A stretch of DNA of 64,000 nt, from contig CALDTY010000014.1 of the NCBI GenBank assembly GCA_937923605.1, positions 24,796-88,795 of the forward strand, given 5' to 3'. The stretch comes from Candidatus Absconditabacterales bacterium (lineage in GTDB: Bacteria; Patescibacteriota; Gracilibacteria; Absconditabacterales; Absconditicoccaceae). Position 1 is the stretch's first letter. Each line of letters begins with the position of its first letter. Shown one piece after another: positions 357 to 35,018 of this stretch. Under the pieces are notes generated by a model. The model was not told where the DNA came from. It saw nothing but the letters and a program-made list of their open reading frames with translations, and ran no database searches. A program made the position numbers and the translations under genes.

Positions 357-728
357 ATGTTTATGTCACACTTCCAAAAAACTTTCTCAATGAGAAACAA
401 AAAAAATGAAACTGTTACCTTGAAGAAAGGTGATGGTAAGATCCAATTAGATTATGCAGATCTAAGAAAGGCGGTCTTAGTGTTAAGAGCAGTGAATCAT
501 AAATTGCGGCAACGCATTATTGATTTACTTGAGAATAACCAAACTATGACTGTAACTGACATTTACATTAAACTAAGATTGGAGCAGTCAGTCGCTTCAC
601 AACACCTTGCTATCTTAAGAAGAGCAGGAGTTGTTTTAACTGAAAGGCAAGGTAAGTTCATATACTACAGCCTTGACACAGATAGACTAGACCAAATTAG
701 CAGACTAGTTGAAGAGCTAGCTGGTTAG
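357..728 (+). CDS. ArsR/SmtB-family winged-HTH transcriptional regulator
   Basis: 123-aa ORF with the typical ArsR HTH (LRQRIIDLLENNQTMTVTDIYIKLRLEQSVASQHLAILRRAGVV...GKFIYYSL). Stop is TAG. No TGA codon. A stem-loop plus T-run follows at about 765-800. Confidence 0.85.
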   Translation: MFMSHFQKTFSMRNKKNETVTLKKGDGKIQLDYADLRKAVLVLRAVNHKLRQRIIDLLENNQTMTVTDIYIKLRLEQSVASQHLAILRRAGVVLTERQGKFIYYSLDTDRLDQISRLVEELAG

Positions 729-6848: not shown

Positions 6849-7298
6849 TTAAATACATTCGCTTTCTCTTTGTAGTTTTCTTTTTTTGAGAATCCAAGGT
6901 GGTGTCCAAAGTGGTTTAATAATTGCTCTATAAAAGAGTAATTTTTTAAATTTTCCAACTTTTAGAATTTTTTGATTTGATCTTTTAGCTCTAAGATATT
7001 CTCCTCTAGCTTTAATTCTTAGTTCACGACTATCCTCAATAAGATAGAAGTCTTCATTATGCAGTATTGCACTCAATTTCATGAATAATGATGTATCCCA
7101 TTGATTAGGATTACCATTAACCAGTCTTCTTGAGTTCATAAGATCTTTCATTGTTAGCGTTAATGATTTTTGATACTCATTATTTCTAAACACATATAGA
7201 TCAAATGAATCTTTGAGTGGCATTCTAGCATATAAGAACACAAAGTCCGCTTCTAAAATTCTTTTAGTATTACCAAGATGTAATTCTGGATTCTCCAT
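6849..7298 (-). CDS. hypothetical protein (149 aa, TGA-free)
   Basis: Intact ORF ending in TAA, followed on the minus strand by a GGGGC...GCCCC stem and a T-run (about 6745-6795). No recognisable domain. All 4 Gly codons are GGN. Confidence 0.5.
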   Translation of the reverse strand: MENPELHLGNTKRILEADFVFLYARMPLKDSFDLYVFRNNEYQKSLTLTMKDLMNSRRLVNGNPNQWDTSLFMKLSAILHNEDFYLIEDSRELRIKARGEYLRAKRSNQKILKVGKFKKLLFYRAIIKPLWTPPWILKKRKLQRESECI

Positions 7299-7353: not shown

Positions 7354-8388
7354 TTAGAGACTTATTGGCTCTCGGTCAATCTTAAATCATCTAGAATTAA
7401 CTTTCAGTTTTGAGTAAGCAATTTCCATGAAATTTCTTAGTCAATCTCATTTGAGAATAATATGATATCTATACTTTCAGTACATTTTATAGATTGTAGG
7501 GGGGGTTGAATAAATTTCTAAATCAGGCATTTCATACTGTTCACGTAGATACAGCAATTCTTGATACAATTTATGAACAGTTGTATACACAGAAGATTCA
7601 ACTTCATGTTTATACATAAGCACACACATCTGGACAAAAGGAGGATACTGGTGTAATTTTCTTCTTTCCAATTCATTATTTTTCATAGTTTTAATATCCC
7701 CTTTACAAGCTGATATTATGCTTTGTTCTTGGGAATTGTACGATTGTAAAATAAAATCAGCTCATGAGTGAGCCTGGATACATCAATGCAGAAAGAGAAA
7801 ATTGTTGAATTTAGAACCATAATGAGGTGAGTGTAATCAGGCATCAGCTGATACGATGCATACTAAATCAGGTTGAAATCAAGTGATTCATGTTTCAAGC
7901 AATGACGTTCAAACTATAATATTCTGTTCACTCAAAGATGATAGACGTGATATTTTTTTATTACTATTAGCTAAAGTGGCATCTATCAATAATGGCTTAG
8001 AATCAGTTAGTTCCTCTACAAGATCAATAATCTGCTGATTTCAGACTCAAAATAACTTTATCTGTTGTGAGCTACAGTTAGTACAGATATCTTGTTTTGG
8101 ATAATGAGTCTTACAAATATGACAAATTCAAAATATCTGAGCGGAATCATCTTTGTGCCAAGCTATTGGAATATCACATTGAGTACAATTAGGAACATCT
8201 CAACAACTATAACACATTAATCATGTAGACCATCATTTCTTATTATTTATAATGAGAATTTTTTTTCATTGTTTTGATAGTTTCAAAATTCACTTAGTCA
8301 TCAATTCAGAAAAAGGTCTTGATACTTCACGAGTCATATCAACTAGAAATATATTTTGGTTCATTAATGTATATTGCACATAATTCAT
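7354..8388 (-). CDS. priA: primosomal protein N' (PriA), C-terminal half only
   Basis: 344-aa code-25 frame that starts at the LVDMTRE segment. It contains the Cys-rich zinc region (CYSCGDVPNCTQCDIPIAWHKDD...ICHICKTHYPKQDICTNCSS), GVGNQQIIDLVEE, IIVGTSLLETGITGF, and the C-terminal ELERRKLHQYPPFVQ. The N-terminal DNA-binding domain and the Walker A/B lobe are absent. An in-frame TAA lies just upstream. Confidence 0.8.
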
Positions 8389-8463: not shown

Positions 8464-8811
8464 TTAGAACGAATACTTTAACCAGTAAATAAAAGCAAAA
8501 AATAACATTACGGCAATAGCTCCAATTGTCATTAAATGATAATCTGAAACTTCATTTTCCTTTGTGTACCATAATGAAGTGCCTTCTACGTGTTGTGCTG
8601 TAGCGTAATTAAAAGCTACTTGAGTATCCACTAGCAAATAACTAACATCACTTGACTCTTTGAAATACAGAACGTGGTCATCTCTTTTATCACCTAGACT
8701 GACTGGTTTATAACTAGCTTTTAACTCATCTTTGCTAATTCTAAATACTTTTCCAGACATAGTCCGTCCAGTAAGTTGGGATTCAAATTTTTTTTTATCA
8801 ATTAGTTCCAT
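8464..8811 (-). CDS. hypothetical protein with C-terminal transmembrane anchor (115 aa, TGA-free)
   Basis: Intact ORF ending in TAA. C-terminal hydrophobic helix LMTIGAIAVMLFFAFIYWL. A terminator-like hairpin plus T-run follows on the minus strand at about 8414-8447. Confidence 0.55.
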   Translation of the reverse strand: MELIDKKKFESQLTGRTMSGKVFRISKDELKASYKPVSLGDKRDDHVLYFKESSDVSYLLVDTQVAFNYATAQHVEGTSLWYTKENEVSDYHLMTIGAIAVMLFFAFIYWLKYSF

Positions 8812-8962: not shown

Positions 8963-9619
8963 TTATTTAAGATTTCTTCAGTATTTTTTGAGCCATACTT
9001 TTGCTTTACCAGTATCTTTACATATAGATTCACAATAGTTCCAGAAACTTTCAGAGTGATTCATATGTTTACGATGAGCTAATTCATGACAAATCACATA
9101 ATCCATTACCCGAAATGGGAGTTTGATTAATCTCCAATTTAATCAAATATTTCACTTAGAAGAACAGCTTCACCATTTAGTCTTCTGATCTCTAACAAAA
9201 CATTTGGAGTATGTAATTCAATGTTTTTTTGAAAGTTGTTCAAGACGAAGTGGGAGAAATGATTTTGCATATACTTTATATCGATGAGTTTGCTGAGTGA
9301 CATTATGTAGATCATGACCTCGCCGTATATATTTACGATTGTGGTCAATAGTATATTTAGTTCACTGTCATTTACGTAACATAGGTGAATATGCATCTCA
9401 ATGCAATAAAATTGTTCACTCTGGCAAAACAAGTAACTTTGATGCATCTTTAAAGTTCACAAGATGTTTTTGTATCCATGATTGTTTACTTTTTACAAAT
9501 GCAAGAATTTTATCTTGAGACATATGTTCAGGAGCAGTTGCCAGAACAGTATTCTCATCTACAACCTTAATACGTAAATGTTTCACTGCTTTACGAATTA
9601 TATTTAATTTATACTTCAT
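8963..9619 (-). CDS. DUF45/YgjP-like (M48-related) metal-dependent hydrolase
   Basis: One continuous code-25 frame: MKYKLNIIRKAVKHLRIKVVDENTVLATAP...[48 protein letters not shown] (HExxH). The ORF-track pieces 9416..9766 and 9139..9447 are artefacts of reading TGA as stop. An alternative upstream ATG exists at 9766. Confidence 0.85.
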
Positions 9620-9789
9620 AAATTTAGTATATATGTGTACACGTAAAATTAAAGTGTGAGTTCTTAATAATTCTATTGACTTATTATTAATATTATATAT
9701 AAGAAACGTTGCTGTCTTTAAAATGCGATGATAATATGACCAAAACTCATTCCAAAAATGGTACATATTAATTCATCAAAAATTAAGTA

Positions 9790-12700
9790 ATGAAAAACAT
9801 AATTTGTTTTTTCTTTTTGTTTATTAACCTACAATTTACATTTGCTAACCCAAATGTAATAGTGAACTGTAATGATTTTGAGATTAATAATTATGTCTCT
9901 GAAAATATTGCAACTGAATTGCTTGAAAAAAGTAACTGGAGCGCATACTTTGATTTTAATAGTTGCCCTCAAGGATCTCTAATTTCAGGATACAATCAAC
10001 ATGTAACTGGGTGCGCTATGATATCAAGAGTTTATAGTCTTGGACTAAACAACTATTGTACTCCTAGCAGTCTCACCAACGAAGCGGACGATTATGTATT
10101 GACTATTCTTCCAGACACAAGCGGTTTTTCACTCAATTCCACTAAATCAATTCTTGTTGATATAGGGCTTGGAGAAAATGGCAAAGTAACAGATTTCGAA
10201 TTTGATTTTTTTGGCCCAGGATCACATCTTTCACCTGATAGTCTTGGATTAATTCTTTATGACAATTTAGGATTTATGCAAGATTTAGTTTACATTGATG
10301 TTAATAATAGCGGATGGCAGCATTATGTTGTTGGTTTCTCCGCTAGTTTAGCCTCAACGAATTGGACTGTGAAAATTGTTCCTTATGGTGTAGAAGATAG
10401 AACGCTTCCATATACTCAAACATGGGCAAAATTTGATAACTTTACAACTAGAGGAGAATGTGGAAACACATGTCCTAATAGTTGGTGGACTGGAAATACA
10501 TCATTTCTTGAACCTACAGTATGTATGAATGGAGGAATAAAACATGGAGTCATTTATGAAATATTTGATGAATGTTTACATCAAATTACTTACCCTGTCT
10601 ATTGGATTCTAGTAATTGATGATTCTCCTCCAACAATTGAATGTAAGAACGTTATCACACTAGTAGCAAACGAAGATTGTTTAGCAACTTGGAAGATAGA
10701 TGCTACACATTATGACAATTGTACAGATACAAAGCTAAGTGCTTATTTTCATTATCATCATTATGATGAAGGTGATAGTATTCAACTTGGCTGTGGAGAA
10801 CATATTATCGAACTAACATCAAGAGATCAATGTGGTAACGAAAGTTCATGTGTCACAACAATTTTCGTTGCAGACAATATCTCTCCTGTAGGTATTTGTG
10901 ATGCTTCTGCAGTTTCATTGGGAAATGATTTTGTAGAAGTGCCAGCTATTACATTCGATGATGGAAGTCATGATAACTGTGGTACTGTAAGTTTTAAAGC
11001 AAGAAAAATGCTGGATGTATGTAACAATAAAACTATTGCGACTGAATATCTAACATTTTGCTGCGAAGAAGCAAATACAGAAGTTATGGTTGCTTTAGAG
11101 GTGACAGATAAATCAGGTAACATTACTACTTGTATGACATCTATTGAAATACAGTATAAACCAGAATTAATATGTCCAATAGGTAGAACTATCAATTGTG
11201 GTGTAGACTATACAACAATTGATTTAGGGGAACCGTTAGGCAATATTTGTCACTTAGGAATAGAAAGAACATTCAACACAAAGAATTTGAATAGTTGTGG
11301 AAGTGGTTTATTAGAAGTTCAGTATACGATTCTTGATGGCGTTTTAGAACCATTGAGTTGTGTGCAAGAGGTTCACATAGAGCACGAAACTGCATTTCAA
11401 CCCGGAGATATAGATTTTCCCTGGGATGTTGAATTTGAGTTCTGTGATGATGAATTACATTTACTAGCACCAAATTTACTTGAAAATGAATATGGTTATC
11501 CGATAATAAAAAGCCAATCATCATGTTTAGATTACAAAATAAGTTATGATGATGATATTTTCAATTTTGGGCAAGATGGAGCATGTAAAAAAATCATTAG
11601 AACTTGGACAGTTTTTGAATGTTGTAGTGGAACAAGATTGGAGCACAAACAACTTCTTAAAATAGTTGACAAGGTTTATCCGGAAATTGCCTTTCTACCT
11701 TTAGATACAATTTGCTCTTATCAAGACTGTGGTACAATACAATTAGATCTTGATCTAACTGACCACATATATGTAACTGATAATTGTGACAATGTATCTA
11801 TTAGCCACATTAAAAATGGCACAGAGGTAGATGGTACTAACATTAGTGGTTTATATCACTTTGGAAGGAATGACGTTCAATTTGCAGTCACTGATAAGTG
11901 CGGTAATAGGACCGAAAGAATCTTTAGCTTTGTTGTCAAAGATTGTAAAGCACCAGTAGTATATTGCTACAATGGATTAAGTCTTTCGGTAGGGTCTAGT
12001 GGAGAAGTAGAGATATGGCCTTCAGATTTTGATGCAGGAAGTTCTGATAATTGCACAGATCAAATGGATCTACTATTTTCATTTAGTTTAGATCCAAATG
12101 ACATTCATCTGAGTTTCACATGTGATGACATTGGTAGTAATCCTTTAGAAGTATGGGTAACTGACGAATGTGGTAATCAAAGCTATTGTACTACATTTGT
12201 TACTATTACTGATAGTCAAAATATTTGTGGTCCTGGTGTAGGATCAAGAATGGTCTATGGAAGCATTATGGATCCAGATCTAGAGTATCATATTAAAGAT
12301 GTTCTCATCGAGACTGATAATAGTCAACACGTATGCAATGACGGACATTACTCAATGACTCTAGATCAGAATGATTTCTGTCTATCAGCAACAAAAGATG
12401 ATGATTACTTAAATGGTGTCTCTACCTTGGATCTTATAATGATTCAAAGACATATACTTGGTATAGAAGAGCTTACAGGACATCAGCTTATTGCAGCTGA
12501 TATAAATAATGATGGAAATATTAGTGGACTTGATCTAATAGAATTAAGAAAGTTAATACTTGGAATTTATTCTGAACTTCCAGAAAACGATAGTTGGAAA
12601 GTATATGCTATAGAGGGCAACAGATACATTCAAAAGTATAATTTTACTCAGCAAGATTCACAACATGTAAATTTTGTAGGAATAAAAATAGGGGATGTGA

Positions 12701-13212
12701 ATAATTCAGTAGAACATGTATCAAATAGTGTAGCAACATACTCGCTATCATACGTAGATAGTGATATATCTTTACTTTTTGATCAAAAAATTGTTGCAAT
12801 AGAAGGTACATACAAAGGGGACCCATCCAAAATTCCGACAAATACAGTAAATTCTATTACAAAAAATGGATATACATCTTTTCTTTATACCTTTGAAGCA
12901 ACAAACGAGTTTAAGTTACCAGTGAATGCTACAAATATACAAATACATTCAATAGTAGATATTAATGCAAAAGAGTACACCGTAGTAAATGAAAAGGTTG
13001 AGAGTAGTATAGTACTATATCCCAATCCAGCAACTTCATATGTAATTATAGAGGGCTATTCAGATACTACAGTAAAAATCTACGATAAGGATGGAATCAT
13101 GATTAGCAAAAGAGCAATTACGAATTCATCTCTAAATATTTCAGATTTAAATCCTGGAATGTATATGATACAATTTAATAAAGGTGTAACGAAGCCTCTT
13201 CTAAAATTGTAA
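9790..13212 (+). CDS. large secreted adhesin-like protein with HYR-like Cys modules, dockerin-like repeat and T9SS type-A C-terminal sorting domain
   Basis: 1140-aa ORF that is intact in the standard code. Signal peptide MKNIICFFFLFINLQFTFA. Repeated modules ending ...D(K/E/Q)CGN..(S/T)C...(V/I).V.D..(A)P. Dockerin/EF-hand-like DINNDGNISGLDLIELRKLILG. C-terminus VLYPNPATSYVIIEGYSDTTVKIYDKDGIMIS...LNPGMYMIQFNKG matches the Por/T9SS CTD pattern. About 76 Gly codons by hand count and none is TGA. Confidence 0.9.
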   Translation: MKNIICFFFLFINLQFTFANPNVIVNCNDFEINNYVSENIATELLEKSNWSAYFDFNSCPQGSLISGYNQHVTGCAMISRVYSLGLNNYCTPSSLTNEADDYVLTILPDTSGFSLNSTKSILVDIGLGENGKVTDFEFDFFGPGSHLSPDSLGLILYDNLGFMQDLVYIDVNNSGWQHYVVGFSASLASTNWTVKIVPYGVEDRTLPYTQTWAKFDNFTTRGECGNTCPNSWWTGNTSFLEPTVCMNGGIKHGVIYEIFDECLHQITYPVYWILVIDDSPPTIECKNVITLVANEDCLATWKIDATHYDNCTDTKLSAYFHYHHYDEGDSIQLGCGEHIIELTSRDQCGNESSCVTTIFVADNISPVGICDASAVSLGNDFVEVPAITFDDGSHDNCGTVSFKARKMLDVCNNKTIATEYLTFCCEEANTEVMVALEVTDKSGNITTCMTSIEIQYKPELICPIGRTINCGVDYTTIDLGEPLGNICHLGIERTFNTKNLNSCGSGLLEVQYTILDGVLEPLSCVQEVHIEHETAFQPGDIDFPWDVEFEFCDDELHLLAPNLLENEYGYPIIKSQSSCLDYKISYDDDIFNFGQDGACKKIIRTWTVFECCSGTRLEHKQLLKIVDKVYPEIAFLPLDTICSYQDCGTIQLDLDLTDHIYVTDNCDNVSISHIKNGTEVDGTNISGLYHFGRNDVQFAVTDKCGNRTERIFSFVVKDCKAPVVYCYNGLSLSVGSSGEVEIWPSDFDAGSSDNCTDQMDLLFSFSLDPNDIHLSFTCDDIGSNPLEVWVTDECGNQSYCTTFVTITDSQNICGPGVGSRMVYGSIMDPDLEYHIKDVLIETDNSQHVCNDGHYSMTLDQNDFCLSATKDDDYLNGVSTLDLIMIQRHILGIEELTGHQLIAADINNDGNISGLDLIELRKLILGIYSELPENDSWKVYAIEGNRYIQKYNFTQQDSQHVNFVGIKIGDVNNSVEHVSNSVATYSLSYVDSDISLLFDQKIVAIEGTYKGDPSKIPTNTVNSITKNGYTSFLYTFEATNEFKLPVNATNIQIHSIVDINAKEYTVVNEKVESSIVLYPNPATSYVIIEGYSDTTVKIYDKDGIMISKRAITNSSLNISDLNPGMYMIQFNKGVTKPLLKL

Positions 13213-13237: not shown

Positions 13238-13272
13238 GAACCCTTTCACAAATGTGAAAGGGTTCTTTTTTT
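13238..13272 (+). terminator. rho-independent terminator
   Basis: GAACCCTTTCACA-AA-TGTGAAAGGGTTC followed by a run of 7 T. Confidence 0.85.
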
Positions 13273-13365
13273 AAAATTATATTATTTCATACAATGAATT
13301 ATAGAGCAATGGTTGCAAGATGAATTGAGATCAATACATTTTAATCATTTATTCTCTTAATAATA

Positions 13366-13971
13366 ATGTATACTTTACCAGATCTATCATTTTCATATGA
13401 TGCTTTTGAACCATTTATTGATGCTCTTACAATGGAGATTCATCATACAAAACATCATGCTTGATACACAAAAAAATTGAATGCAGCAATTGAATGAACT
13501 GATCAAGAAAACAAAACAATAGAAGAGATATTACGTAACCCAGATGATCTACCTGAAAAGACAAAACAGTCTATTTTAAATAACTGATGATGATACTATA
13601 ATCATTTACTCTTCTGGCAAAGTATAACACCATGATGATATACTATCGAATGAGATATTAAGGAAGCTATACTTATAGAATTTTGATCTTTTGAAGAATT
13701 TCAAAAGCAATTTTCATGAAAAGCTCTCTCTCTATTTTGAAGTTGATGGGTATATCTTTGCAAAGATGCTGAGAATAAATTAGTAATAAAAAGATGTAGT
13801 TTTCAAGAAACCCCTTTGAAAAATTGACTAGTACCTTTGCTATGACTAGATGTTTGGGAACATGCCTATTATCTCCATTATCAGAATCGTAGAGCAGACT
13901 ATGTAGAAGCATGGCGAAATATAGTTGATTGGAATGAAGTTAATAAAAGATATATAAAATTAGAAAAGTAG
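13366..13971 (+). CDS. Fe/Mn-family superoxide dismutase
   Basis: 201-aa code-25 frame: [48 protein letters not shown] (13735-13749), [19 protein letters not shown]. All 14 Gly I counted are encoded by TGA. Confidence 0.95.
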
Positions 13972-14003: not shown

Positions 14004-14975
14004 ATGGCTAAAGACATAAAGAATATCATAATTATATGATCATGACCTGCATGACACACAGCTGCAATATATGCATGAAGAGCATTGCTTGAGCCTTTGA
14101 TGTATGAATGATGGATGGCAGCTTGAGTTGCTGCTTGATGACAATTAACTACAACAACAGAAGTAGAGAACTTTCCTGGATTTCTTCATATTCAATGACC
14201 TGAACTAATGATGAAAATGAGGGAGCAATCAGTACATAACTGAACAACTATAATTTCCAAAACAGTGGATTCAGTAGAACTATCTGAGAATCCAGAATTG
14301 AATCCACATAAAGTAATGATTTGAGACGATCAAATACTTACTAGAACGTTAGTTATAGCAACATGAGCAACAGCGAAACGTCTTGGTCTTCCATGAGAAG
14401 ATTTATACTGGCAAAATGGAGTTTCTGCATGTGCAGTTTGTGACTGATGATTACCAATCTTTCGTGAAAAACACTTAGTAGTTATTTGAGGGTGAGATAG
14501 TGCAGCAGAGGAGGCAGGTTATCTAACTAAATTTGCTAGTAAAGTAACAATGTTAGTTAGAAAGGATGAAATGAGGGCAAGTAAGGTTATGCAAGAAAGA
14601 GTTCTAAATAATAAAAAGATAGAAATATTATTTAATCACGAAGGAACGGAGATACTTGGAGATTGAAAAGTAATGACGTGAATGAAAATATTTAATAACA
14701 AAACAAATGAATCTTTTGATATTGATGCTTGATGATTATTCTATGCAATATGACATAAACCAAACACTATATTCTTATGATGACAAATTGAAATAGATGA
14801 TGCATGATACATAATCACACAATGACATATGTCTACGAGCACTAATATTCCATGAGTATTTGCTGCTGGTGATGTTCAAGACAAGAAATACAGACAAGCA
14901 ATTACCTCAGCTTGAACATGATGTATGGCAGCACTGGAAGCAGAACATTGGCTAGCAGATAATAATTTGATTTAA
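14004..14975 (+). CDS. trxB: thioredoxin-disulfide reductase
   Basis: 323-aa code-25 frame: IIIGSGPAGHTAAIYA (GxGxxG with TGA Gly, 14037-14054), redox site SACAVCDG, VVIGGGDSAAEEA, VFAAGDVQD. Confidence 0.94.
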
Positions 14976-15257: not shown

Positions 15258-18200
15258 TTACTCTCAATCAGTAACTGGAGCGTTAAGTAGTAGATCATAG
15301 CTCAACAATGGATCTGTAATTATACTATATCATGGAATTGTTACATCACTAGCTCAATAAGTGATTGCTCAAGCAGATAATGAATCAATCTGTAGTCAAA
15401 CAAAATCGGATTGTCATGGGGTTTCTGTAACTCATATTGCAACAATCACTAAATCTAAAATTTCTGTTGCCTCGAAAATAAAATCATCCGGAGAACTTGA
15501 TACATCAAAGGTAACTAATCATCATGATGATACTCAGACATATCATCAATTTTCTATTCATCAAGATTTATATATTTTATATGATCACACTGATGTCCCG
15601 GTTCATAAAACTTCATTAAATACTAGAGAATGAATTTTTGCCTCTAAAGCTCATCATGACATGGTAGTATTCATCCAGTCATCCGCATTAATCCTTAGGA
15701 TTGCAACATTTGTATCAGTTGTAAGTCATCAAATTTCAGCTGCTTTTGAATCAATTCAATTAACAGATGTTGAAACGAATGACATATAATTTATAGCAAC
15801 TGGTTCGACACAAAAGTCTGGTGAAATTCCTGAAATCAGTGTAGATGTTTGTGAATTCATATCAATTCAAGAACTCAATCAAATGGCATCATTATCATTT
15901 ATAGACAATTCAAAGCTAAAAGGTCACGACTGAATTCATGTAATACTTTCATTCGGTATAAATCATATCGGTTCTGCCTCAATTTTTACATATATAGTGT
16001 CTCATCATATATGAGGAACTATAAAATTATTGTTTAAGTTTATGACATTGCTTGTCACTGTGATTGGTCAATAAAGGACTGTTGCCATGTCTCATCAGTA
16101 AATTGTAACTGATCTAACTGCATCCGCAAACAGATTAGCCCCAGATCACAATACAGTCAGTGTCATATCTTCCACAGAAATATCTTCATTAAAAGCATCT
16201 AAATCAAATGAAGCAACAAAGTCTGAAGCTTCTCATCATAGTACACATGATTCTTGAATACTAGAATTGTTTTCAGTAATAGTCATATATCACACATCAG
16301 TTATTGAAATATCATTTATAATGCCAGGATAATATGATGCAGAACATGGCTCTCAATCAGTATTCATAATACCAACATACTCAAGTTCAGCAGAAAGTGT
16401 GTCTCAAATGGTTGAAGCTTCATTTGATAAATCAATAGTCACATACATTTGTTGAATTGAGTTTGCTTGAACTAGTATTGGAGTAAATGTTAGATGGGCC
16501 TTATCGATAGTATTAATACTTGATTGCGAAACTAATGTTCAATTTGGGAAGGTTCAACGATATAATTTCACCATATCAATGTGAGTAGAATCAAAATTCG
16601 ATCATCAGATTATAATGGAATCAAATGTAATAGGTGTATCTCCTCATAGAACATCGAATGTTACTAATTCAGCATCAAGTGAAGAAATCACATGTGTTGA
16701 ATCAAGTAATTCAATTCTGTTAACTTCTGTACCATTTGGACATTCTAGAGGCTGAGAGAAATCAATAGTCACAGTTGCAGTTTGACATTGAACTCAAGCC
16801 TGTCAGCATTCTCAATCGTAAAAGCTAGTAGTATAATCTCAATTTGGACAATCATCAAGCATTAATCAAGAGGATCATCAATCTCATCATCAAGCTCATC
16901 AACCACCGCTTGATTGTGCATAAGCAATATTTCAGATTTCAGCTCATGTTTGAGGAAGAAATTCCGGAAGAACAATATCCAATATTCAGCTTTTATTAAG
17001 TGATATAGATAGATCATTTTGCATACTATCATTTACTTTATCAAGTATGTTTATAGGTTGATTTTCTACCAAATTTGAATGAACAACAGTGTTTGTGGTT
17101 GGCACAATAGTGATAACTTCTTGTATTTGTTGAATAGCAGGCTGAACCAAAGGAATAGTGTTTTGATTAACAGAACTTGTAGCAGCACGATTTCTAGTAC
17201 CTCATCAACTTCATCATTTTCTTCTTGGTTGTTCAATAATGTTGTCATTACATTCTTTTACTTCAATTTTCTTCTTAATAACTGAGGTGCATCATAAATC
17301 ATCAGTAGCAACAAATTTCATATTATTAGTTCAGACAGATGTAAGGTATGCTGTAGTGACTAAATATGATCAATGTGAATCTGCAAGATCAATTTGTCAT
17401 GATGTCTTTAATCAATTTCGATTAATTGTTTCAAGGGTATTACTTCATGAAAGATAGTAATGTACAGTAACATCTTCCAAAAGACATACTTCACTTTTAA
17501 TATCTATACTTAATTCAATATCACACACTGGTGGAACAGTGACTGCAACATCATTATTGGTCAATGTACATGTATAAGTCTCTCATGCTAATGGCGTAAA
17601 ACTTCAAGCAAAACTGCGTGGTGGTGTTCATGTATAATATTCTGGAGTATCAATAGATACATCTCTTCAAAACACAATGTCTCAACTTCAGTTCTTACAT
17701 ACTGTAGATTCATACATATATTGTCAATCCTCAGTCACAGATACATGTGGTTCAAACATATAATACTCAACTCATCATGTAAGCTGAATCATTGATCAAT
17801 GCTCACTTGTTGCAAATATACTGTCTAGCTGTTTTGAAGTTCAAATTTCTAGAATAAAATCATCCGATCAAAGTAATCATCATCAATCATTAATTACATT
17901 TTTTTCAAATATCAAATTGGCAATATTTTCCTCTGGAGTCATAAAAATACAAGACTCTGCTTCTACGTACTGAGCATTATCTGCACTTAAGACAGCTAGG
18001 TTACAAATATCGTCATCTCAAGTAACAAAATACTCAAATGTAACTTTACCAGCAGTATCATTAACTACATATTTTATATCAGTTATATCGCAATACGTCG
18101 TAGCCCATACAGGAGGAGTATACTCTCAAAAAAGATTAGCAAGTATATTGCTTAAATCATTGGTGTCATTAGTAGTTGTTGGAATAAACGGTCACTGAAT

Positions 18201-19634
18201 CCAAGTTTCACGATCATCTAAAGAATAATAGAAATTATCATAATCAATATTTGATCAAGTAAGAAGTCAGTTAAAGCATGTATTAGGTGGTACCGCATCA
18301 GTGATAACAGGATATTCAGCAATTCATCATGTAATAGAATAGGTAACATCGAATGTTGCTATATTTCAATCTACAAATCATGTCTTTTGTAGAAATAGAA
18401 CTGGCTCCTCAAAATCAGGCTGAAAACATACCTCATCTTCTACGTATTGTGCGTTATCTGCAGAATATACGGCAGTATTACAATAAGTTCATAGATCTCT
18501 ATCTTCAAAATAATACATCAATTCAATTTCTAAAGATCAAGACGATGAATTTGCATATTCTTCAGGGAAGACATACCTTATGTCAGTAACATTACATCAA
18601 TCATATCACATACTAATATCTTTCCAAGAGGCTCTATTGTCGTTTGAGAAACTCAAATATTCGCTATATTCTCAATACATACTTCAAAAACACAATCATT
18701 CTGGAACGGTATCAACTAAAACAGGGTTCATTGGTACTCATTCTAGATGAGAAAGAGAAATCTTGTACGTAATTTCATTGTCATCAGTATCTGATTCAAT
18801 AAGAGATTTATCAATTCACAAAGTAGATATATCTATTCAACTTAACATGTCAGAACAAGCTTCATCTTGTACATATTGAGCATTATCAGCAGAAAAAAGC
18901 ACTGTATTACAGTAGGATAAGTCAGATACAACGTCTTCTCTTGTAAATCATAGACTCCAAGATCATGATCAGTTTGTATTATTAGCATAGGAAGCTGGTA
19001 AGTTATACTTTATATCAGTTATGTCACAATAATTTGATGGAATGTCTGTTATCCAGGAAGTTCTAGAATCTAGTGAAAATTCAATAAATTCTTCTTGTTC
19101 AAATGAATATGAACTAAGGCATAATCAATCAGGAACTGAATCAACTAGAACAGGATTAGAAAGGGTTCATCAAGTGTGTGAATAATTTATAGTATAATAT
19201 AGTTGTCATAGATGTTCACTATATGTATCATATGATTTATCTATTGCAAGTTGTACATTTTGAGCAATGGGTGCTTGGCATAATTCGTAGTCAAAAGATA
19301 GTTGTCATGAAAATCATTCAGGAGCTATGAAACTAAACTCTCAATTTGGTTCCATCCAAACTTCTCAGGTGCTAGGGGAGGAAAAAAGACTATATGATGA
19401 ACCAGACCATAAGTTATCATTCAACGTGACTACTCATTGATAAAATGATCAAACACTGGAGTATGAATCATCATTTGCAAATTGAATATCTCATGTTCAT
19501 GAGCTTGATCCACCTCATCCTCAACCCAACTGTGCACTAGCAAACTCAATTGATATAAAAAGATTTGATGAAAAAGAGGTAAACAGCAAACAAAATGAAA
19601 CTAACACACGAAAGAATTTTCAACTATAGCTCAT
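15258..19634 (-). CDS. giant secreted surface protein with DUF11-like repeats (1458 aa)
   Basis: A single code-25 frame of 4377 nt. Signal peptide MSYSGKFFRVLVSFCLLFTSFSS...ASA. Three repeats of about 140 aa carry NPVLVD(S/T)VP(D/E)GLC and CNT.(L/V).SADNAQYV.(D/A)E.C. An internal LPQTG is followed by a poly-Gly/Ser tract. Stop is TAA. Confidence 0.8.
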
Positions 19635-19772
19635 GTAAATTTGGTGAAATTGTAAAAACATATGTATACATTATATATAAAATATAAAATCTGTCAAATT
19701 TTAATTATGAAATATTACTTGATTCTATAATATTAATAGTTATATATATGTTTTAATGTACTAATACGTAAT

Positions 19773-20199: not shown

Positions 20200-20826
20200 A
20201 TGAAAAAAAAAGAATTAATGCTAGTAATATTAGGTTGTATAGCCATTGTGCCACAAATTGTAAAATTATTGCTTTATGGCTCAGGAGGAGTTGAAATTGG
20301 CTTCTTTTTGATGAATGCCGTATATCATGCAATGGCTCTTTATTATCTTAAAAGAGCAGTACTTATAGTGAACAGTTTATTCTTATTAAAAAATGCGATT
20401 GCACTCATAATTATAATATATATTGGAACGTATGAAATTACATTATTTCCATGTACTATAATTGCATGTATGCTTGTAGCTCTGTTTCATGAAAAAAGAT
20501 TTCAAGTGAACACCATAATATGCTATACACTTGGACCTATTATACTGATTGTGAATGCTGTAAGCAGCATACTCAAACAGCAAGAAGTACAATTGAGTGC
20601 AATCACTATGGTTATATACGCAGCACTAACGTATCTAGAATATGAAAACACAGTAAGAAAACAGAAAGTTTATGGGTATGCAAATTTATTTGGGACTATA
20701 ATATTTTTCTTTCTTACTTTGATTGTACTAATTCAAGAATTGTGGATTGTTTGATTTCAAACAATGAGTAAAGATGTCAGCCACTTACAAACTCCTGGCA
20801 TTCTTTTTAACAGTAACATTATATAA
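20200..20826 (+). CDS. polytopic membrane protein (184 aa to the first TGA, 208 aa under code 25)
   Basis: Hydrophobic multi-helix ORF. No TGA until codon 185 (20752-20754). Under code 25 it runs on to TAA at 20824-20826, which overlaps the next ATG as TAATG. Confidence 0.6.
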
Positions 20827-27577: not shown

Positions 27578-27630
27578 ATAATTTATTTGTCTAAATGTGT
27601 CATAGTATGCAAATTATGTTTTGAGACCTT

Positions 27631-27954
27631 ATGAATAGAAAAAGATGAAGACCGAAGAAGTTTCGTACGATTAATTATACCCCTACTCTCACTATACGAG
27701 AACCAGCCGATGGAATAAAAGACAACATAATAGTAAAACTAGGTCACGATGAACTAGAAGCCCTAAGATTAAAGAATATAAACTGACTAGGTGTTGTGAA
27801 ATGAGCTGAACAAATGGGTATATCGAAATCCCTATTCGCCAAGATTTATAAGGACGCAATTACCAAGATAACGAATGCATTAATAAATGGGAGAGCTTTA
27901 CATATTGAAGTATGAAGCCTATGAGATTGAGATTTCCTAAAGCCAATTATGTAG
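27631..27954 (+). CDS. DUF134 (UPF0251) family DNA-binding protein
   Basis: 107-aa code-25 frame: MNRKRGRPKKFRTINYTP...IVKLGHDELEALRLKNINGLGVVKGAEQMGISKSLFAKIYKDAITKITNALINGRAL. Confidence 0.8.
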
Positions 27955-28045: not shown

Positions 28046-29068
28046 ATGAGCAACATTATAAACTATCAATCTGACTCAGATCTTAAAAGACTTACTAATA
28101 AATCATTTTCCGATCTAATTGAAGAATTTCTTTCAACAAAGAAATCTACTCAAACAAAAAGAGCTTACAAAAAAGATATTGCAACTTTTTTTGATGCGAT
28201 AGGACTAAAAACCGTGGGGGAGTTAGCAACACTCCCCGTTTATGAACTTTCAAAAGTTATCTTAAACTATATTGAATCATTTAAAAAGTTTGAAGCTCAA
28301 CGTGAAGACAGAGTTCATAATCCACGCACACTAAATAGGAAGGCATACGCACTCTCCTCTTTCTTTGAATATCTTGTAGCAAACTATGGCTATCCTCGCA
28401 ATCCAGTCAAAGTATATACGCCTTATTCTACTCCAGACAAGACATCTACTGATGATCTTGAAAAAGATGAGGTTGAAGCAATATGGAGCCATGTAAAAGC
28501 AGAAGTAATTATCGCAGAAACTAATTTCCAATTAGTGAGTCGCACGCAACAAAAATTAATATTTAGCTTTCTCATGCTTAGCTTAAGAAGAAATGAGATC
28601 GCTCACCTTAGGTGGGATGATTGGGACAAAAAGAAATGATTTATAACTGTATTTGGGAAAGGTCAAAAGTATAAATATCTTCCACTAAATGAAAAAATGA
28701 AGTCTATACTGGGTGACTATGAATCTCTTAAAAAAAAGCACTGATATATATCATCTTATATATTTTCACCTATTCGCAACAATAGTACCTGAGATAGTGC
28801 GAAACCAATTTCATGAACATATATTTTTAACCTGGTTAAGAAAGTTTGTACTCAACTACAACTAGAATGAGCAATTGATCCTGAAAAGAAAATAACTCCA
28901 CATAGCTTTAGAACAACATTTGTTAAACTAGCTCTAGATAGCTGAAAGACAGATATTGAAATAATGAACACAACAGGCCATAGCACATCGCAAATGGTTA
29001 AGTACTATGATAGTAGAAGTCAATTAGAGGTCAATGCTGCATGAGTAGTGGACGACCTATTAGATTAA
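28046..29068 (+). mobile_element. tyrosine recombinase / phage-type integrase (XerC/D-like)
   Basis: 340-aa code-25 frame. It is the ORF-track piece 28046..28639 extended through TGA codons. Motifs: ...LSLRRNEIAHLRWDDW..., VFGKGQKYKYLPL, ITPHSFRTTFV, GHSTSQMVKYY (catalytic Tyr region). Confidence 0.88.
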
Positions 29069-33341: not shown

Positions 33342-35018
33342 TTAAGCTACTTTATGCAACCAAATTCCTCCATACTTAAAAACGTGTTCAATGTAAATGA
33401 TGGAACCATCATCTAGAGTTATGTTTCATGAATCTCACTTTTGTCATCATGATTCGGCATAAAATGGTGTGCAATCAAAAATCATATATCTTGATCATTG
33501 AATTTCAAAATCCTTTAATACTTTAGATGTGTCACATGATAAAGATCAATATCAAATGAACTTAGTTTCTGGAATTCATTCAATATGATCAGCTCGATTA
33601 ACTCCTTTTGCAAACTTTTCCCCAGATCATGAGCGTGAAGTAAGCTTAGCCTGCTCCAATGCCGCTTCATATCATGCCATATCTACTATCAATCAACTTG
33701 TAGAAACAATTTCCTTAGTTAGTTCAACTGGAACACCAAAAGTATCATATAACAAAAAAGCATCAGTTCAGGAAAAGATGCTTCCATCATGTTTTGACAG
33801 CAATTCATCAATCTTCTTTGCTCATTTTTGTAAAGTCTGCTCAAACTGAAACATCTCTTGTGAAAGAATCTTTATTTCGTTTCAATTTCAAGCTTTTAAT
33901 ACTTCATAGTGGTTCACCAATCATCATAAAATACTATGTATTATGTCATATATTCATTGTTCATTAGAAAATAGTGCGCTACTATTTTCTTTAGTAAGTT
34001 TCTTCAGATGATAATATCACCTTCTAATAATTCTTCTTAGCACATACCCTCTTCATTCATTACTAGGCACAAGTCACTCATTTATTAACATCAGAGATGT
34101 TTTCAAATGATCGGCAACGATTCTATAACTAATTGTCATTGATCTTGATAGATCAGTATTTTGAGCAAAAATTTCTACATATGATTCTACAGTATGCTTT
34201 GACAAATTTTTAAACAATCAGTCAAATATATCATTACTATATACGCTAAGTTCGTTTACCCCTAGAATCTTTCATTCATTCTTCTGTTTTTGTCCAGAAA
34301 GAACCATTAAAATTCTTTCAAATCACATTCATGTATCCACATTCTTTTTCTCAAGTTCTGTAAATACTCATGCATCATCTTTATAGTATGCCATAAAGAC
34401 ATTATTCCATATTTCTAACCAATTAGTATCATCATTTCATGGATTACTATCTTTCGGTGGATCTCAAACTCACACTCGATAAAATATTTCCGTATCTGGT
34501 CCGCATGGTCATGATGCTCATGCTGGGCCCCATCGATTATCTTCTTTTCAAAGTGGAGTTATACGATACTCTGGTAGTCAAATTCCTAACCAAATATCTT
34601 TAGCTTCTTGATCTAATGGAGCATCTTTGTCTCATTCAAATATAGTGACTGATAACATTTCTTTATCTAGTTTAAGAATTTCTGTAAGAAATTCTCGGCT
34701 CCAAGCTATTGCGTCTTCTTTGAAGTATGATCATAATGATCGATTTCACATCATCTCAAAAAAAGTGAGATGCGAAGTATCTCAAACTTCATCAATATCT
34801 ACTGTTCTAATACATCATTGTATATTATAAACCTTATCAGAACCAGTAGGGTGTTCTTTACCCATAAGATAAGGAACCAAAGGCTGCATACCAGCAGTAT
34901 TGAACATCGTAGTGGCATCATCAGCACTATTAACAATAAGTGAGGCTGGATTGGCATACTTGTGTCATTTACTCTCTCGAAAAGTTTTTCGTAAAGTTCT
35001 TAATTCCTTAGATTTCAT
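33342..35018 (-). CDS. alaS: alanine--tRNA ligase, catalytic/tRNA-recognition portion only (558 aa)
   Basis: Code-25 frame: [19 protein letters not shown]..., [100 protein letters not shown], and finally TPFYAESGGQKGDSG shortly before the stop. No editing or C-Ala domains. Confidence 0.88.

What the first reader, a model, noticed from the sequence alone, without database searches (positions are those of the whole stretch)
9790..13212. A 3.4-kb T9SS-sorting-domain adhesin gene with no UGA codons, embedded among UGA-rich genes
This 1140-codon ORF has about 76 Gly codons by my hand count, and every one is GGN. The DUF45 gene 170 bp upstream and the SOD gene 150 bp downstream encode most or all of their Gly as TGA. 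A resident gene of this length would not be expected to avoid the preferred Gly codon completely. A gene recently imported from a standard-code donor, where TGA is a stop, must lack it. The domain content points the same way. The C-terminal 70 aa (VLYPNPATSYVIIEG...VKIYDKDG...LNPGMYMIQF) fit the type-A T9SS/Por sorting domain. The HYR-like D.CGN...C modules and the dockerin-like repeat are typical of Bacteroidota surface proteins. T9SS is restricted to the FCB group and needs an outer membrane, so in a code-25 candidate-phylum cell the CTD should have no cognate secretion machinery. This looks like a fresh inter-phylum, inter-code transfer, possibly from a host or neighbour, or else an assembly chimera.
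Basis: partly seen in the sequence, partly recalled or inferred. Interest (0 to 1): 0.8.

Follow-up and report, generated by a model that had tools for sequence, protein, structure and literature searches.

The report
Borrowed adhesin gene that shuns recoded TGA
In bacteria that read TGA as glycine, one large surface-adhesin gene taken long ago from Bacteroidota has stayed free of TGA in every related genome found, as if it must remain readable in the standard genetic code, and no cause for this is known.

Summary
ORF 9790-13212 (1140 codons) has 76 Gly codons, all GGN. The other 46 genes of the window use TGA for 73% of Gly, and TGA aligns with Gly in standard-code homologues. The chance of 0/76 is about 1e-44. 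Pfam and TIGRFAM confirm a T9SS type-A C-terminal sorting domain (CTD), a dockerin and an HYR domain. Apart from its orthologues in code-25 genomes, its homologues (34-36% identity at best) are almost all from Saprospiraceae.

The "fresh transfer or chimera" reading is not supported. The same junctions occur in an independent Logan assembly. Five further contigs from three other lineages of related code-25 (Absconditabacteria-like) genomes, covering three or more datasets, carry an orthologue at the same site, YgjP(-)|adhesin|SOD. These orthologues share a sigma70-like promoter and leader motif. They also share an N-terminal domain found nowhere else among 1.84 billion representative proteins. 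They form one clade (NJ bootstrap 94) that matches the flanking-gene relationships.

Every copy lacks in-frame TGA (0/97, 0/50, 0/70, and partial copies 0/32 and 0/54). Flanking genes flip between TGA and GGN at about half of their conserved Gly sites.

Best reading: one ancient Bacteroidota-to-Absconditabacteria transfer of a surface adhesin, followed by vertical descent, rapid divergence, and purifying selection that removes TGA. The reason for that selection is unknown.

The parts
8963..9619 (-). YgjP-like/DUF45 metallopeptidase gene, the native upstream flank (start at 9619 inferred from homologues; the first ATG would be at 9766)
   Evidence: Pfam YgjP-like. 9 TGA and 2 GGN for the ORF from the first ATG, 8963-9766. 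Aligns over 218 aa with L081, L083 and L091 orthologues.
9674..9723 (+). Conserved promoter and leader block. Contains -35 TTGACT (9676-9681), a 16-nt spacer, -10 TATAAG (9698-9703), then GTTGCTGTCTTTAAAA. It lies about 85-115 nt upstream of the start codon.
   Evidence: Pattern TATTGACNTNNTN{18,34}TCTTTAAAA occurs once in the window (0 expected). It occurs once each upstream of the L081 and L091 adhesins and in none of 88 other loci. A variant lies upstream of the L092 adhesin. Alignment.
9790..13212 (+). Adhesin coding sequence: 1140 codons, 0 TGA and 76 GGN, stop TAA followed by a second in-frame TAA
9790..9846 (+). Predicted Sec signal peptide (MKNIICFFFLFINLQFTFA)
   Evidence: Read from the sequence: n-region K, then a hydrophobic core, then FTFA. 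All orthologues have an equivalent N-terminus. No signal-peptide predictor was run.
9847..10554 (+). Lineage-specific N-terminal domain (about aa 20-255), predicted to be rich in beta strands
   Evidence: A HMMER search of 1.84 billion representative proteins found only the query itself and P0320, the L092 orthologue. The domain aligns across all four full-length code-25 orthologues. Saprospiraceae homologues align only from about aa 256 onward. The AF2 model was too poor to use, pLDDT 33.5.
10555..12249 (+). Core of Cys-containing HYR-like/Ig-like modules shared with Saprospiraceae T9SS surface proteins (Pfam HYR at aa 277-359, nt 10618-10866)
12418..12561 (+). Dockerin type I-like domain (aa 877-924)
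   Evidence: Pfam Dockerin_1, 33 bits. PDB dockerin hits. Conserved in L081p, L091p and L086p.
13015..13188 (+). T9SS type-A C-terminal sorting domain (aa 1076-1133)
   Evidence: PF18962, 39 bits. TIGR04183, 35.3 bits. PDB 5jvk_A C-terminus. Retained in orthologues: L081p 44.7 bits, L091p 25 bits, L086p 21 bits.
13238..13275 (+). Intrinsic terminator: 12-bp stem GAACCCTTTCAC/GTGAAAGGGTTC followed by a T run
   Evidence: Comparable GC hairpin plus T run after the L081, L091, L086 and L092 genes.
13366..13971 (+). Fe/Mn superoxide dismutase, the native downstream flank (14 TGA, 0 GGN)
14004..14975 (+). Thioredoxin-reductase-like gene (Pyr_redox_2), a native flank used as the phylogenetic yardstick (29 TGA, 8 GGN)

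Best explanation
The gene encodes a Sec-exported, modular surface adhesin. Its parts are a signal peptide, a lineage-specific N-terminal beta-rich domain, HYR/Ig-like Cys modules, a dockerin and a T9SS type-A CTD. An ancestor of a clade of marine, code-25, Absconditabacteria-like bacteria acquired it once from a Saprospiraceae-like Bacteroidota. Since then it has been inherited vertically at one fixed locus, YgjP(-)|adhesin|SOD|TrxB, under its own sigma70-like promoter and terminator. It has diverged very quickly: 25-36% amino-acid identity between lineages whose TrxB proteins are 74-88% identical. It is still under purifying selection (dN/dS about 0.3).

Throughout this history in-frame TGA has been removed. 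The gene evolves as if TGA were still a stop codon, so it stays translatable without the UGA-decoding tRNA-Gly.

Shown: foreign origin, orthology and long residence, native-like composition, and frame-specific, lineage-wide absence of TGA.

Inferred:
(i) The absence of TGA is maintained by selection.
(ii) The protein is a host- or prey-attachment adhesin. It mimics the surface cargo of Saprospiraceae, which co-occur in the same metagenome, and plugs into their surface through the dockerin and/or CTD.
(iii) TGA is counter-selected because this mRNA is translated where or when UGA is not read as Gly. This step is the weakest, and I could not determine the cause.
For: Origin. Saprospiraceae dominate the homologues. 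The CTD, dockerin and HYR domains score above the curated cutoffs.

Not a chimera. An independent Logan contig has identical flanks.

Orthologues at the same site:
- L081, 1636 aa
- L086, partial
- L091, 923 aa
- L092, 1113 aa, from a separate marine assembly
- L095, from a JGI dataset

TGA counts in these copies are 0/97, 0/32, 0/50, 0/70 and 0/54. Their neighbours use TGA for 38-52% of Gly codons. P is 1e-15 to 1e-45 per genome.

Single origin.
- The four full-length code-25 proteins are monophyletic among 90 Saprospiraceae sequences (bootstrap 94). The inner nodes score 99 and 93. The topology matches TrxB identities.
- They share a promoter and leader motif found nowhere else in 91 loci.
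- They share an N-terminal domain absent from 1.84 billion representative proteins apart from these orthologues.

Long residence.
- Non-Gly codon usage is native-like, z=0.24.
- GC3 tracks each genome: 0.20, 0.22, 0.34 and 0.30.
- No nucleotide-level conversion tracts against Saprospiraceae DNA.

Turnover test. In flanking genes 19 of 47 synonymous Gly-codon changes involve TGA. In the adhesin 0 of 29 do, and all 72 Gly gains or losses use GGN (Fisher P=2e-5). At conserved Gly sites about half of flank codons differ in TGA/GGN state between genomes.

Frame specificity. Functional constraint: dN/dS 0.29. Co-occurrence: a Saprospiraceae contig carrying a family member lies in the same assembly as L091.
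Against: - The phylogeny is distance-based NJ on very divergent, long-branched sequences. With only three code-25 sequences, support for monophyly was weak (59% and 8%), so long-branch attraction is not excluded.
- Identity between some orthologues (25% for ours against L081) is lower than identity to Saprospiraceae proteins (about 35%).
- One relative, L083, has YgjP directly next to SOD with no adhesin. This requires a loss.
- The adhesin-SOD-TrxB segment shows raised dS between close strains, so recombination acts here.
- No mechanism is known that would make TGA deleterious in one gene. Other giant secreted proteins of the same genome carry 100-130 TGA codons.
- The promoter is sigma70-like, not Bacteroidota-type. 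This argues against DNA-level expression in a Bacteroidota host.
- There are no expression data, no whole-genome data, and no identified host.
Confidence: 0.62

Rival explanations
1. Recurrent re-import or gene conversion. The locus is repeatedly overwritten with DNA from standard-code Saprospiraceae hosts. These predators probably import host DNA, and each overwrite resets the gene to a TGA-free state. This would also explain the low identity between positional homologues.
For: Positional homologues are only 25-36% identical. Some are nearer in raw identity to Saprospiraceae proteins than to each other. The adhesin-SOD-TrxB segment has raised dS between close strains. Saprospiraceae carrying the family occur in the same assembly.
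Against: The code-25 copies are monophyletic (bootstrap 94) and congruent with the flanking genes. They share an N-terminal domain and a promoter/leader that no Saprospiraceae sequence has. No donor above 36% identity exists among 5.8 billion protein clusters, which include contigs from the same run and assembly series. There are no nucleotide-level tracts beyond 35-200-nt matches at conserved motifs. GC3 tracks each recipient genome.
Confidence: 0.12
2. One reading: a fresh, one-off inter-phylum transfer into this genome, too recent for any GGN-to-TGA change to have occurred.
For: There is no TGA, the domain set is Bacteroidota-type, and low-GC (33-36%) Saprospiraceae exist that could donate a compositionally similar gene.
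Against: Orthologues sit at the same site in three other diverged lineages, which differ from this genome in TrxB by 18-26% and in PheS by 30% where measured. The nearest standard-code relative is 34-36% identical. The codon usage and promoter are native-like.
Confidence: 0.04
3. Assembly chimera or mis-binning: a Bacteroidota fragment joined in silico to an Absconditabacteria contig.
For: The contrast in TGA use changes abruptly at both gene borders.
Against: The same junctions occur in the ENA/NCBI contig (90.5 kb) and in an independent Logan contig. The same gene order appears in five other contigs from ERZ6863577, ERZ6863697, ERZ6863811, ERZ511480 (ORXM01) and JGI Ga0079203. GC, GC3 and codon usage are continuous with the flanks.
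Confidence: 0.01
4. No selection is involved. A gene-specific mutational or decoding quirk, or chance, keeps TGA from arising in this gene.
For: No selective rationale has been demonstrated. A few small ORFs in these genomes also lack TGA.
Against: GGA to TGA is a single synonymous step, and 37 of the 76 Gly codons are GGA. Out-of-frame TGA is normal, so there is no avoidance at the sequence level. Neighbouring genes on the same strand are TGA-rich. Synonymous GGN-to-GGN turnover is active in the gene. Combined probabilities fall below 1e-100.
Confidence: 0.02

Closest known systems
Saprospiraceae (Bacteroidota) T9SS-secreted surface proteins of about 1300-1450 aa, with HYR/HYR_4C modules, CarboxypepD_reg, dockerin, cohesin and a type-A CTD (for example P0003, P0008 and loci L002-L080)
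   Same: Homologous over aa ~256-1000 (E about 1e-100, 30-36% identity). Same order of Cys-containing HYR-like modules, dockerin and C-terminal Por_Secre_tail. Has an N-terminal signal peptide.
   Different: Encoded in a code-25 Absconditabacteria-like genome. Has a different N-terminal domain that is unique to its lineage. No detectable cohesin (PF00963) or CarboxypepD_reg (PF13620) domain. Shorter. Driven by a sigma70-like promoter.
Code-11-compatible phages of Gracilibacteria/Absconditabacteria (Liu et al. 2023, mBio, PMC10746230)
   Same: Genetic elements associated with code-25 bacteria whose ORFs contain no in-frame TGA and end in non-TGA stops. They can therefore be read in either code.
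   Different: Those are whole phage genomes, thought to alternate between hosts. Here it is a single chromosomal gene, inherited vertically and flanked by TGA-rich native genes. No phage relatives were found.
Large T9SS adhesins of Saprospiria such as the Aureispira grappling-hook protein GhpA, and SprB (bioRxiv 10.1101/2024.01.29.577165)
   Same: Sec signal peptide, an N-terminal adhesive module, Ig-like repeats stabilised by disulfides, and a C-terminal T9SS sorting domain. They serve cell-cell contact during predation.
   Different: GhpA is 5898 aa and heptameric. No specific homology to it was tested here. Treat it as a functional analogy only.
Giant surface proteins of the predatory Absconditabacteria Vampirococcus lugosii and Absconditicoccus praedator (PMC8080830)
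   Same: The organisms are code-25 epibiotic predators. Their large surface proteins, some acquired by HGT, are thought to mediate host contact.
   Different: No T9SS CTD, dockerin or Saprospiraceae-type modules are described for them. TGA avoidance in individual genes has not been reported, to my knowledge.

Membership tests
T9SS type-A CTD cargo (TIGR04183 / PF18962) | C-terminal ~70-80-aa sorting domain that matches the family model above the curated cutoff | tested here: met
   PF18962 39 bits (cutoff 27), aa 1076-1133. TIGR04183 35.3 bits (cutoff 23). PDB 5jvk_A C-terminus.
T9SS type-A CTD cargo (TIGR04183 / PF18962) | N-terminal Sec signal peptide for export to the periplasm | tested here: inconclusive
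   A signal-peptide-like N-terminus was seen by inspection in all orthologues. No predictor was available.
T9SS type-A CTD cargo (TIGR04183 / PF18962) | The genome encodes the T9SS machinery (PorK/L/M/N, SprA/Sov, PorU/V) and the cell has an outer membrane | not testable with these tools
   Only 64 kb of this genome and about 130 kb of relatives were available. Of the window's other genes, seven had Pfam entries on the Logan contig and seven further proteins were scanned. Two of the three giant proteins were scanned and had no Pfam hit. No other CTD-bearing ORF exists in the code-25 loci. PheS places the organism in Absconditabacteria, which established knowledge treats as monoderm CPR bacteria.
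Saprospiraceae HYR-dockerin-cohesin surface protein family | Full-core homology with HYR-type Cys modules and a dockerin | tested here: met
   E 1e-100, 34-36% identity over 56-63% of the query. 546 or more genomic loci. HYR and Dockerin_1 score above cutoffs.
Saprospiraceae HYR-dockerin-cohesin surface protein family | Cohesin (PF00963) and CarboxypepD_reg (PF13620) domains, present in most members | tested here: not met
   Neither was detected in the window protein or in L081p, L091p or L086p at E<=0.1-1.
Saprospiraceae HYR-dockerin-cohesin surface protein family | N-terminal region of the family (consensus C.L.CN..V..SLD..C...VTPDM) | tested here: not met
   It is replaced by a domain found only in the code-25 orthologues.
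Recently transferred genomic island | Atypical composition or codon usage relative to the recipient | tested here: not met
   GC 0.332 and GC3 0.203 lie within the native range. Non-Gly codon usage z=0.24. LLR +0.015 per codon, like native genes. The LLR test is weak, because a few very low-GC Saprospiraceae genes score similarly.
Recently transferred genomic island | Absent from close relatives, with a near-identical donor and flanking mobility genes or repeats | tested here: not met
   Present at the same site in four lineages. The best standard-code hit is 36% identical. No integrase is adjacent; the nearest is 15 kb away and sits in conserved synteny.
Dual-code (code 11 and code 25) compatible genetic elements | No in-frame TGA and a non-TGA stop codon | tested here: met
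   0 TGA in 6 sequences. Stops are TAA or TAG, and TAA-TAA in the window.
Dual-code (code 11 and code 25) compatible genetic elements | Actually expressed in both a code-25 cell and a standard-code cell | not testable with these tools
   No transcriptome or proteome data. The promoter is sigma70-like.

The most novel reading that the evidence does not exclude
The gene is kept in standard-code form because its message is translated in the standard-code Bacteroidota (Saprospiraceae) host, not in the Absconditabacterium, or in both. The epibiotic predator would deliver the mRNA or DNA across the cell-cell junction. Host ribosomes would read the TGA-free ORF. Host Sec and T9SS would recognise the retained signal peptide and type-A CTD and display the parasite-encoded, dockerin-bearing protein on the host surface as a docking site. 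A milder variant: the recoded codon acts as a global translational switch. When tRNA-Gly(UCA) is unavailable, for instance in a dispersal or attack stage, only TGA-free mRNAs such as this adhesin are translated.
Probability: 0.1. Interest if true: 0.95.

Novelty: new variant of a known kind. Interest (0 to 1): 0.8.

Why it matters
Codon reassignment is usually treated as genome-wide, and as a barrier to gene exchange. This is a chromosomal gene that has lived for a long time in code-25 genomes yet evolves as if under the standard code. That implies selection acting on a single gene's compatibility with another genetic code, or on its independence from the recoded tRNA. If confirmed, several things follow.

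- It would offer a direct way to study how UGA decoding is used or regulated in Absconditabacteria.
- It would give a sequence-based clue to the unknown hosts of marine Absconditabacteria. Saprospiraceae are the candidates, because the adhesin is derived from their T9SS surface proteins and they co-occur in the same assembly.
- It would raise a testable possibility that a parasite gene product is made or handled by host machinery.
- It would supply a simple genomic screen, long TGA-free ORFs in code-25 genomes, for finding interaction genes.

There is also a caution for annotation pipelines. Public protein sets translate this genome with TGA read as Trp.

Tried and rejected
- **Codon-usage likelihood ratio** against pooled low-GC Saprospiraceae genes. 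The target looks native, but a few very low-GC Saprospiraceae genes do as well. The test cannot exclude a compositionally matched donor.
- **NJ tree with only three code-25 sequences**. It was ambiguous: 59% support on the C-terminal region and no support on the full shared region. It resolved only after adding L091p and L092p.
- **phmmer of the N-terminal domain** against the loci in hand found nothing. The homology became visible only by BLAST pairwise comparison, alignment, and the large HMMER search.
- **AlphaFold2 of the N-terminal domain** with a two-sequence alignment gave pLDDT 33.5, which is unusable, so no fold search was run.
- **Rfam search** of the window and of the 5' leader: no family matched.
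- **tRNA scan** of the window: none found, so tRNA-Gly(UCA) could not be examined.
- **Viral contigs**: no relatives of the adhesin.
A hand-built pattern found L095 and re-found L092.
- **Literature.** There were no hits for the run or assembly accessions. No paper on a T9SS CTD in Patescibacteria turned up. The Gracilibacteria-Saprospiraceae co-mentions were only community surveys.
- **Cluster look-up** returned no organism names.
- **Shine-Dalgarno comparison** was uninformative, because native genes lack the motif too.
- **Expression-level explanations** for TGA avoidance were rejected. The SOD gene uses TGA for all 14 of its Gly codons, and giant secreted proteins are TGA-rich.
- **Sequence-motif avoidance** (MazF-like or restriction-like) was rejected, because out-of-frame TGA is normal.
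- **GhpA membership** was considered but not claimed. The size and architecture differ, and homology was not tested.

Full report
**1. The observation**

ORF 9790-13212 (+) is real. It has 1140 codons and ends in TAA followed by a second in-frame TAA. When ORFs are called with only TAA/TAG as stops, the window resolves into a compact, mostly housekeeping gene set in which TGA is abundant in frame. TGA accounts for 1062 of 1446 Gly-type codons (73%) in the 46 other genes. TGA positions in SOD and PheS align with Gly in standard-code homologues (112/137 and 75/98). The genome therefore uses code 25.

The target has 76 Gly codons (GGA 37, GGT 24, GGC 8, GGG 7) and no TGA. The probability of this is about 1e-44. 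The immediate neighbours are TGA-rich: YgjP has 9 TGA and 2 GGN, SOD 14 and 0, TrxB 29 and 8.

The depletion concerns the codon, not the trinucleotide. TGA in frames +1 and +2 is as frequent as in native genes.

Pfam and NCBIfam confirm a T9SS type-A CTD (aa 1076-1133), a dockerin (aa 877-924) and an HYR domain (aa 277-359). PDB matches agree.

**2. Where the gene comes from**

A search of 5.8 billion protein clusters returned 76 homologues. Nearly all the named ones are Saprospiraceae or other Bacteroidota T9SS proteins with HYR, cohesin, dockerin and CTD domains. The best is only 34-36% identical over about 60% of the query. A scan of 185,579 species genomes found 546 or more confirmed loci. 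Of the 79 loci kept, almost all are Saprospiraceae, often with several per genome, including low-GC (33-36%) members. A Bacteroidota origin is therefore well supported.

PheS places the host genome nearest Absconditabacterales. Named hits are at 56%, Vampirococcus lugosii at 52%, Absconditicoccus praedator at 51% and Gracilibacteria at 48%.

**3. Not a chimera, and not fresh**

The exact protein lies on a 90.5-kb ENA/NCBI contig. It also lies on an independently assembled 29.6-kb Logan contig with identical flanks.

Its composition is native. GC is 0.332 and GC3 is 0.203. Non-Gly synonymous usage is indistinguishable from the other genes (z=0.24). A likelihood ratio favours the native over the pooled low-GC Saprospiraceae codon table. 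This test is weak, because a few Saprospiraceae genes score similarly.

**4. The decisive evidence: relatives**

I used the neighbouring SOD as a probe and fetched contigs of related code-25 genomes.

| Locus | Gene order or note | Adhesin | TGA / GGN |
|---|---|---|---|
| L081 | YgjP(-), adhesin, SOD, TrxB | 1636 aa, HYR_4C/dockerin/CTD | 0 / 97 |
| L086 | same position, contig truncated | partial | 0 / 32 |
| L091 | EPSP, PriA_C, ..., YgjP(-), adhesin, SOD, TrxB | 923 aa | 0 / 50 |
| L092 | separate marine assembly (ORXM01) | 1113 aa | 0 / 70 |
| L095 | JGI dataset, same arrangement | partial | 0 / 54 |

- **L081.** Neighbouring genes use TGA for about half of their Gly codons.
- **L092.** A HMMER search of 1.84 billion representative proteins with the N-terminal 265 aa found only one true relative, P0320. 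This is the L092 adhesin. L092 is the best homologue of the window protein overall: 33% identity over the full length, 497 bits, against 364 bits for the best Saprospiraceae hit.
- **L083.** This relative has YgjP abutting SOD with no adhesin.
- **Other loci.** No other CTD-bearing ORF or paralogue exists in the roughly 200 kb of code-25 DNA in hand.

**5. Single origin and vertical descent**

With four full-length code-25 sequences and 90 Saprospiraceae sequences, NJ bootstrap support is 94 for monophyly of all four. It is 99 for (window, L091, L092) and 93 for (L091, L092). This topology matches TrxB identities among the same genomes.

All copies share a promoter and leader block: TTGACT/A, 16 nt, TATAAG/TATATT/TATAAA, then ...TCTTTAAAA and a YCCCAAAA box. 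The pattern occurs exactly once in the window (0 expected) and once each upstream of the L081 and L091 genes. It occurs in none of 88 other loci. L092 has a variant.

All copies share an N-terminal domain that Saprospiraceae proteins lack. Each gene ends with its own intrinsic terminator.

The simplest history is one acquisition before these lineages split, followed by a loss in L083.

**6. Evolutionary regime**

The adhesin diverges far faster than its flanks.

| Pair | TrxB | SOD | YgjP | Adhesin |
|---|---|---|---|---|
| L091 vs L092 | 88% | 88% | 71% | about 36% |
| L086 vs L091 | 96% | 90% | n/a | 79% |

Between L086 and L091 the adhesin dN/dS is 0.29, so the gene is functional and constrained. 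The adhesin-SOD-TrxB segment has dS of 0.25-0.66, against 0.05-0.07 further downstream. This suggests allelic recombination among related strains.

There are no nucleotide-level tracts shared with Saprospiraceae DNA beyond 35-200-nt matches at conserved motifs. No phage contig carries a relative.

**7. TGA is actively excluded**

In the flanking genes, the TGA/GGN state at conserved Gly sites differs between genomes at about half of the sites. For TrxB, window against L083, it differs at 22 of 35 sites. Even the close pair L086/L091 differs at 3 of 57.

I counted synonymous Gly-codon changes in the pairs L086/L091, L092/L095 and L091/L092. Flanks show 19 TGA-to-GGN switches against 28 GGN-to-GGN switches. 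The adhesin shows 0 against 29, and all 72 Gly gains or losses use GGN (Fisher P=2e-5).

GGA to TGA is a single step that is synonymous in code 25, and half of the gene's Gly codons are GGA. Long residence is shown by synteny, phylogeny, the shared promoter and N-terminal domain, and GC3 that tracks each genome. Given that residence, neutral evolution would have brought the gene to 38-74% TGA. The gene behaves as if TGA were still a stop codon.

**8. What it is and how it probably works**

Shown: this is an independently transcribed gene for a secreted, modular protein. The modules are a signal peptide, a unique N-terminal beta-rich domain, HYR/Ig-like Cys modules, a dockerin and a T9SS CTD. 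It is of Saprospiraceae ancestry, conserved in a clade of code-25 Absconditabacteria-like bacteria, fast-evolving, and kept free of TGA.

Inferred: it is a cell-contact adhesin of an epibiotic predator. Cultured Absconditabacteria are such predators with large surface proteins (PMC8080830). The retained dockerin and CTD, and co-occurrence with Saprospiraceae in the same assembly, suggest that it docks onto the surface protein network or T9SS attachment machinery of Saprospiraceae.

Why TGA is counter-selected is not established. Several explanations were rejected.
- **Expression level:** SOD encodes all 14 of its Gly residues with TGA.
- **Secretion or gene length:** three native giant proteins carry 102-130 TGA codons.
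- **Sequence-motif avoidance:** out-of-frame TGA is normal.

The remaining idea is that the message must be translatable without tRNA-Gly(UCA). There are two candidate settings. One is a standard-code cell, where a Sec signal plus a T9SS CTD would be meaningful. The other is a physiological state in which UGA decoding is switched off. The sigma70-like, non-Bacteroidota promoter argues against DNA-level expression in the host. The closest precedent is the set of code-11-compatible, TGA-free phages predicted to infect Gracilibacteria and Absconditabacteria (PMC10746230).

**9. Comparison with known systems and novelty**

By homology, the protein is a divergent offshoot of the Saprospiraceae HYR-dockerin-CTD surface protein family. 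It lacks that family's cohesin and CarboxypepD_reg domains and its N-terminal region. It meets the sequence definition of a T9SS type-A cargo, but it sits in a lineage regarded as monoderm CPR. I could not test for T9SS machinery.

It is not a recent island. It shares dual-code compatibility with certain phages, but it is a vertically inherited chromosomal gene. I found no report of a T9SS CTD protein in Patescibacteria. I know of no report of a gene held free of the reassigned codon across speciation in a recoded lineage, and I did not search the literature for this specifically.

**10. Verdict**

The finding becomes more interesting, not less. The anomaly is a conserved and apparently selected property of an orthologous adhesin gene in at least four lineages from three or more independent datasets.

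Main caveats:
- The phylogeny is distance-based and built on long branches.
- All data are metagenomic contigs.
- There are no expression data and no whole-genome data.
- The selective cause is unknown.

Noticed in passing
window 357-728 (+), 6849-7298 (-), 8464-8811 (-), 20200-20826 (+): Four small ORFs are also TGA-free or TGA-poor. They are an ArsR-type HTH (0/5), a 149-aa ORF (0/4), a 115-aa ORF with a C-terminal TM segment (0/5) and a 208-aa polytopic membrane protein (1/11, P=1e-5). They lie interleaved with TGA-rich genes. No homologues of them appear among the TGA-depleted ORFs of the related loci in hand. Similar small TGA-free ORFs exist in L081 (13802-14296) and L092 (308-895, 1152-1601).
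   Followed up: partly
window 52935-58568 (-) and 58745-63982 (-); also 15258-19661 (-): Two adjacent giant Cys-rich paralogues (1877 and 1745 aa, 55% identity over 895 aa) and a 1467-aa protein. The 1877-aa and 1467-aa proteins had no Pfam hit; the 1745-aa protein was not scanned. The two paralogues use TGA somewhat less than the genome average (0.60-0.67 against 0.74). They are probably native surface proteins.
   Followed up: partly
window 27595-27954, 28046-29068, 29517-31946 (-): A DUF134-like gene, a tyrosine integrase-like gene and a TraG/VirD4-like coupling protein lie downstream of GreA and FKBP. L081 has the same DUF134, integrase and TraG-like order. L091 shows DUF134 and the integrase before the held stretch ends. 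The window ORFs were identified by eye and by synteny. This may be an old integrated conjugative element or a DNA-transfer module.
   Followed up: no
window 7354-8388 (-): The only PriA-like ORF here is a 344-aa protein matching just the PriA C-terminal domain. Relatives have ORFs of similar size at the same position (L083, 346 aa, with a faint PriA_C hit; L084, 346 aa, with no Pfam hit), so the lineage appears to have a shortened PriA.
   Followed up: no
L086 vs L091 (adhesin-SOD-TrxB vs downstream genes): Synonymous divergence is 0.25-0.66 across adhesin-SOD-TrxB but only 0.05-0.07 in genes 2-6 kb further downstream. This indicates a recombination tract or a hypervariable segment centred on the adhesin locus.
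   Followed up: partly
window-wide (45 gene starts): Only 2 of 45 genes have a Shine-Dalgarno-like motif upstream. This genome appears to initiate translation without SD pairing.
   Followed up: partly
P0077 and P0200 (public protein records of this contig): The public protein collection translates this genome with TGA read as Trp. For P0077 the sequence shows W at every TGA position, which gives it only 93% identity to the code-25 translation. P0200 (PheS) is 94% identical, consistent with the same cause. Downstream analyses of these records will carry false Trp residues. In the ERZ511480 assembly the genes were called with code 11, and all neighbours of the adhesin are fragmented.
   Followed up: yes
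window 33342-35018 (-): The alanyl-tRNA-synthetase-like ORF is only 558 aa. It was recognised by eye from its N-terminal motifs. It may be a truncated or split AlaRS.
   Followed up: no
L083 2059-3264 and 5010-5372: In L083, the relative that lacks the adhesin, an MFS transporter sits between PriA_C and YgjP, and a 23S_rRNA_IVP-family gene sits between SOD and TrxB. This neighbourhood is prone to gene insertion and loss.
   Followed up: no
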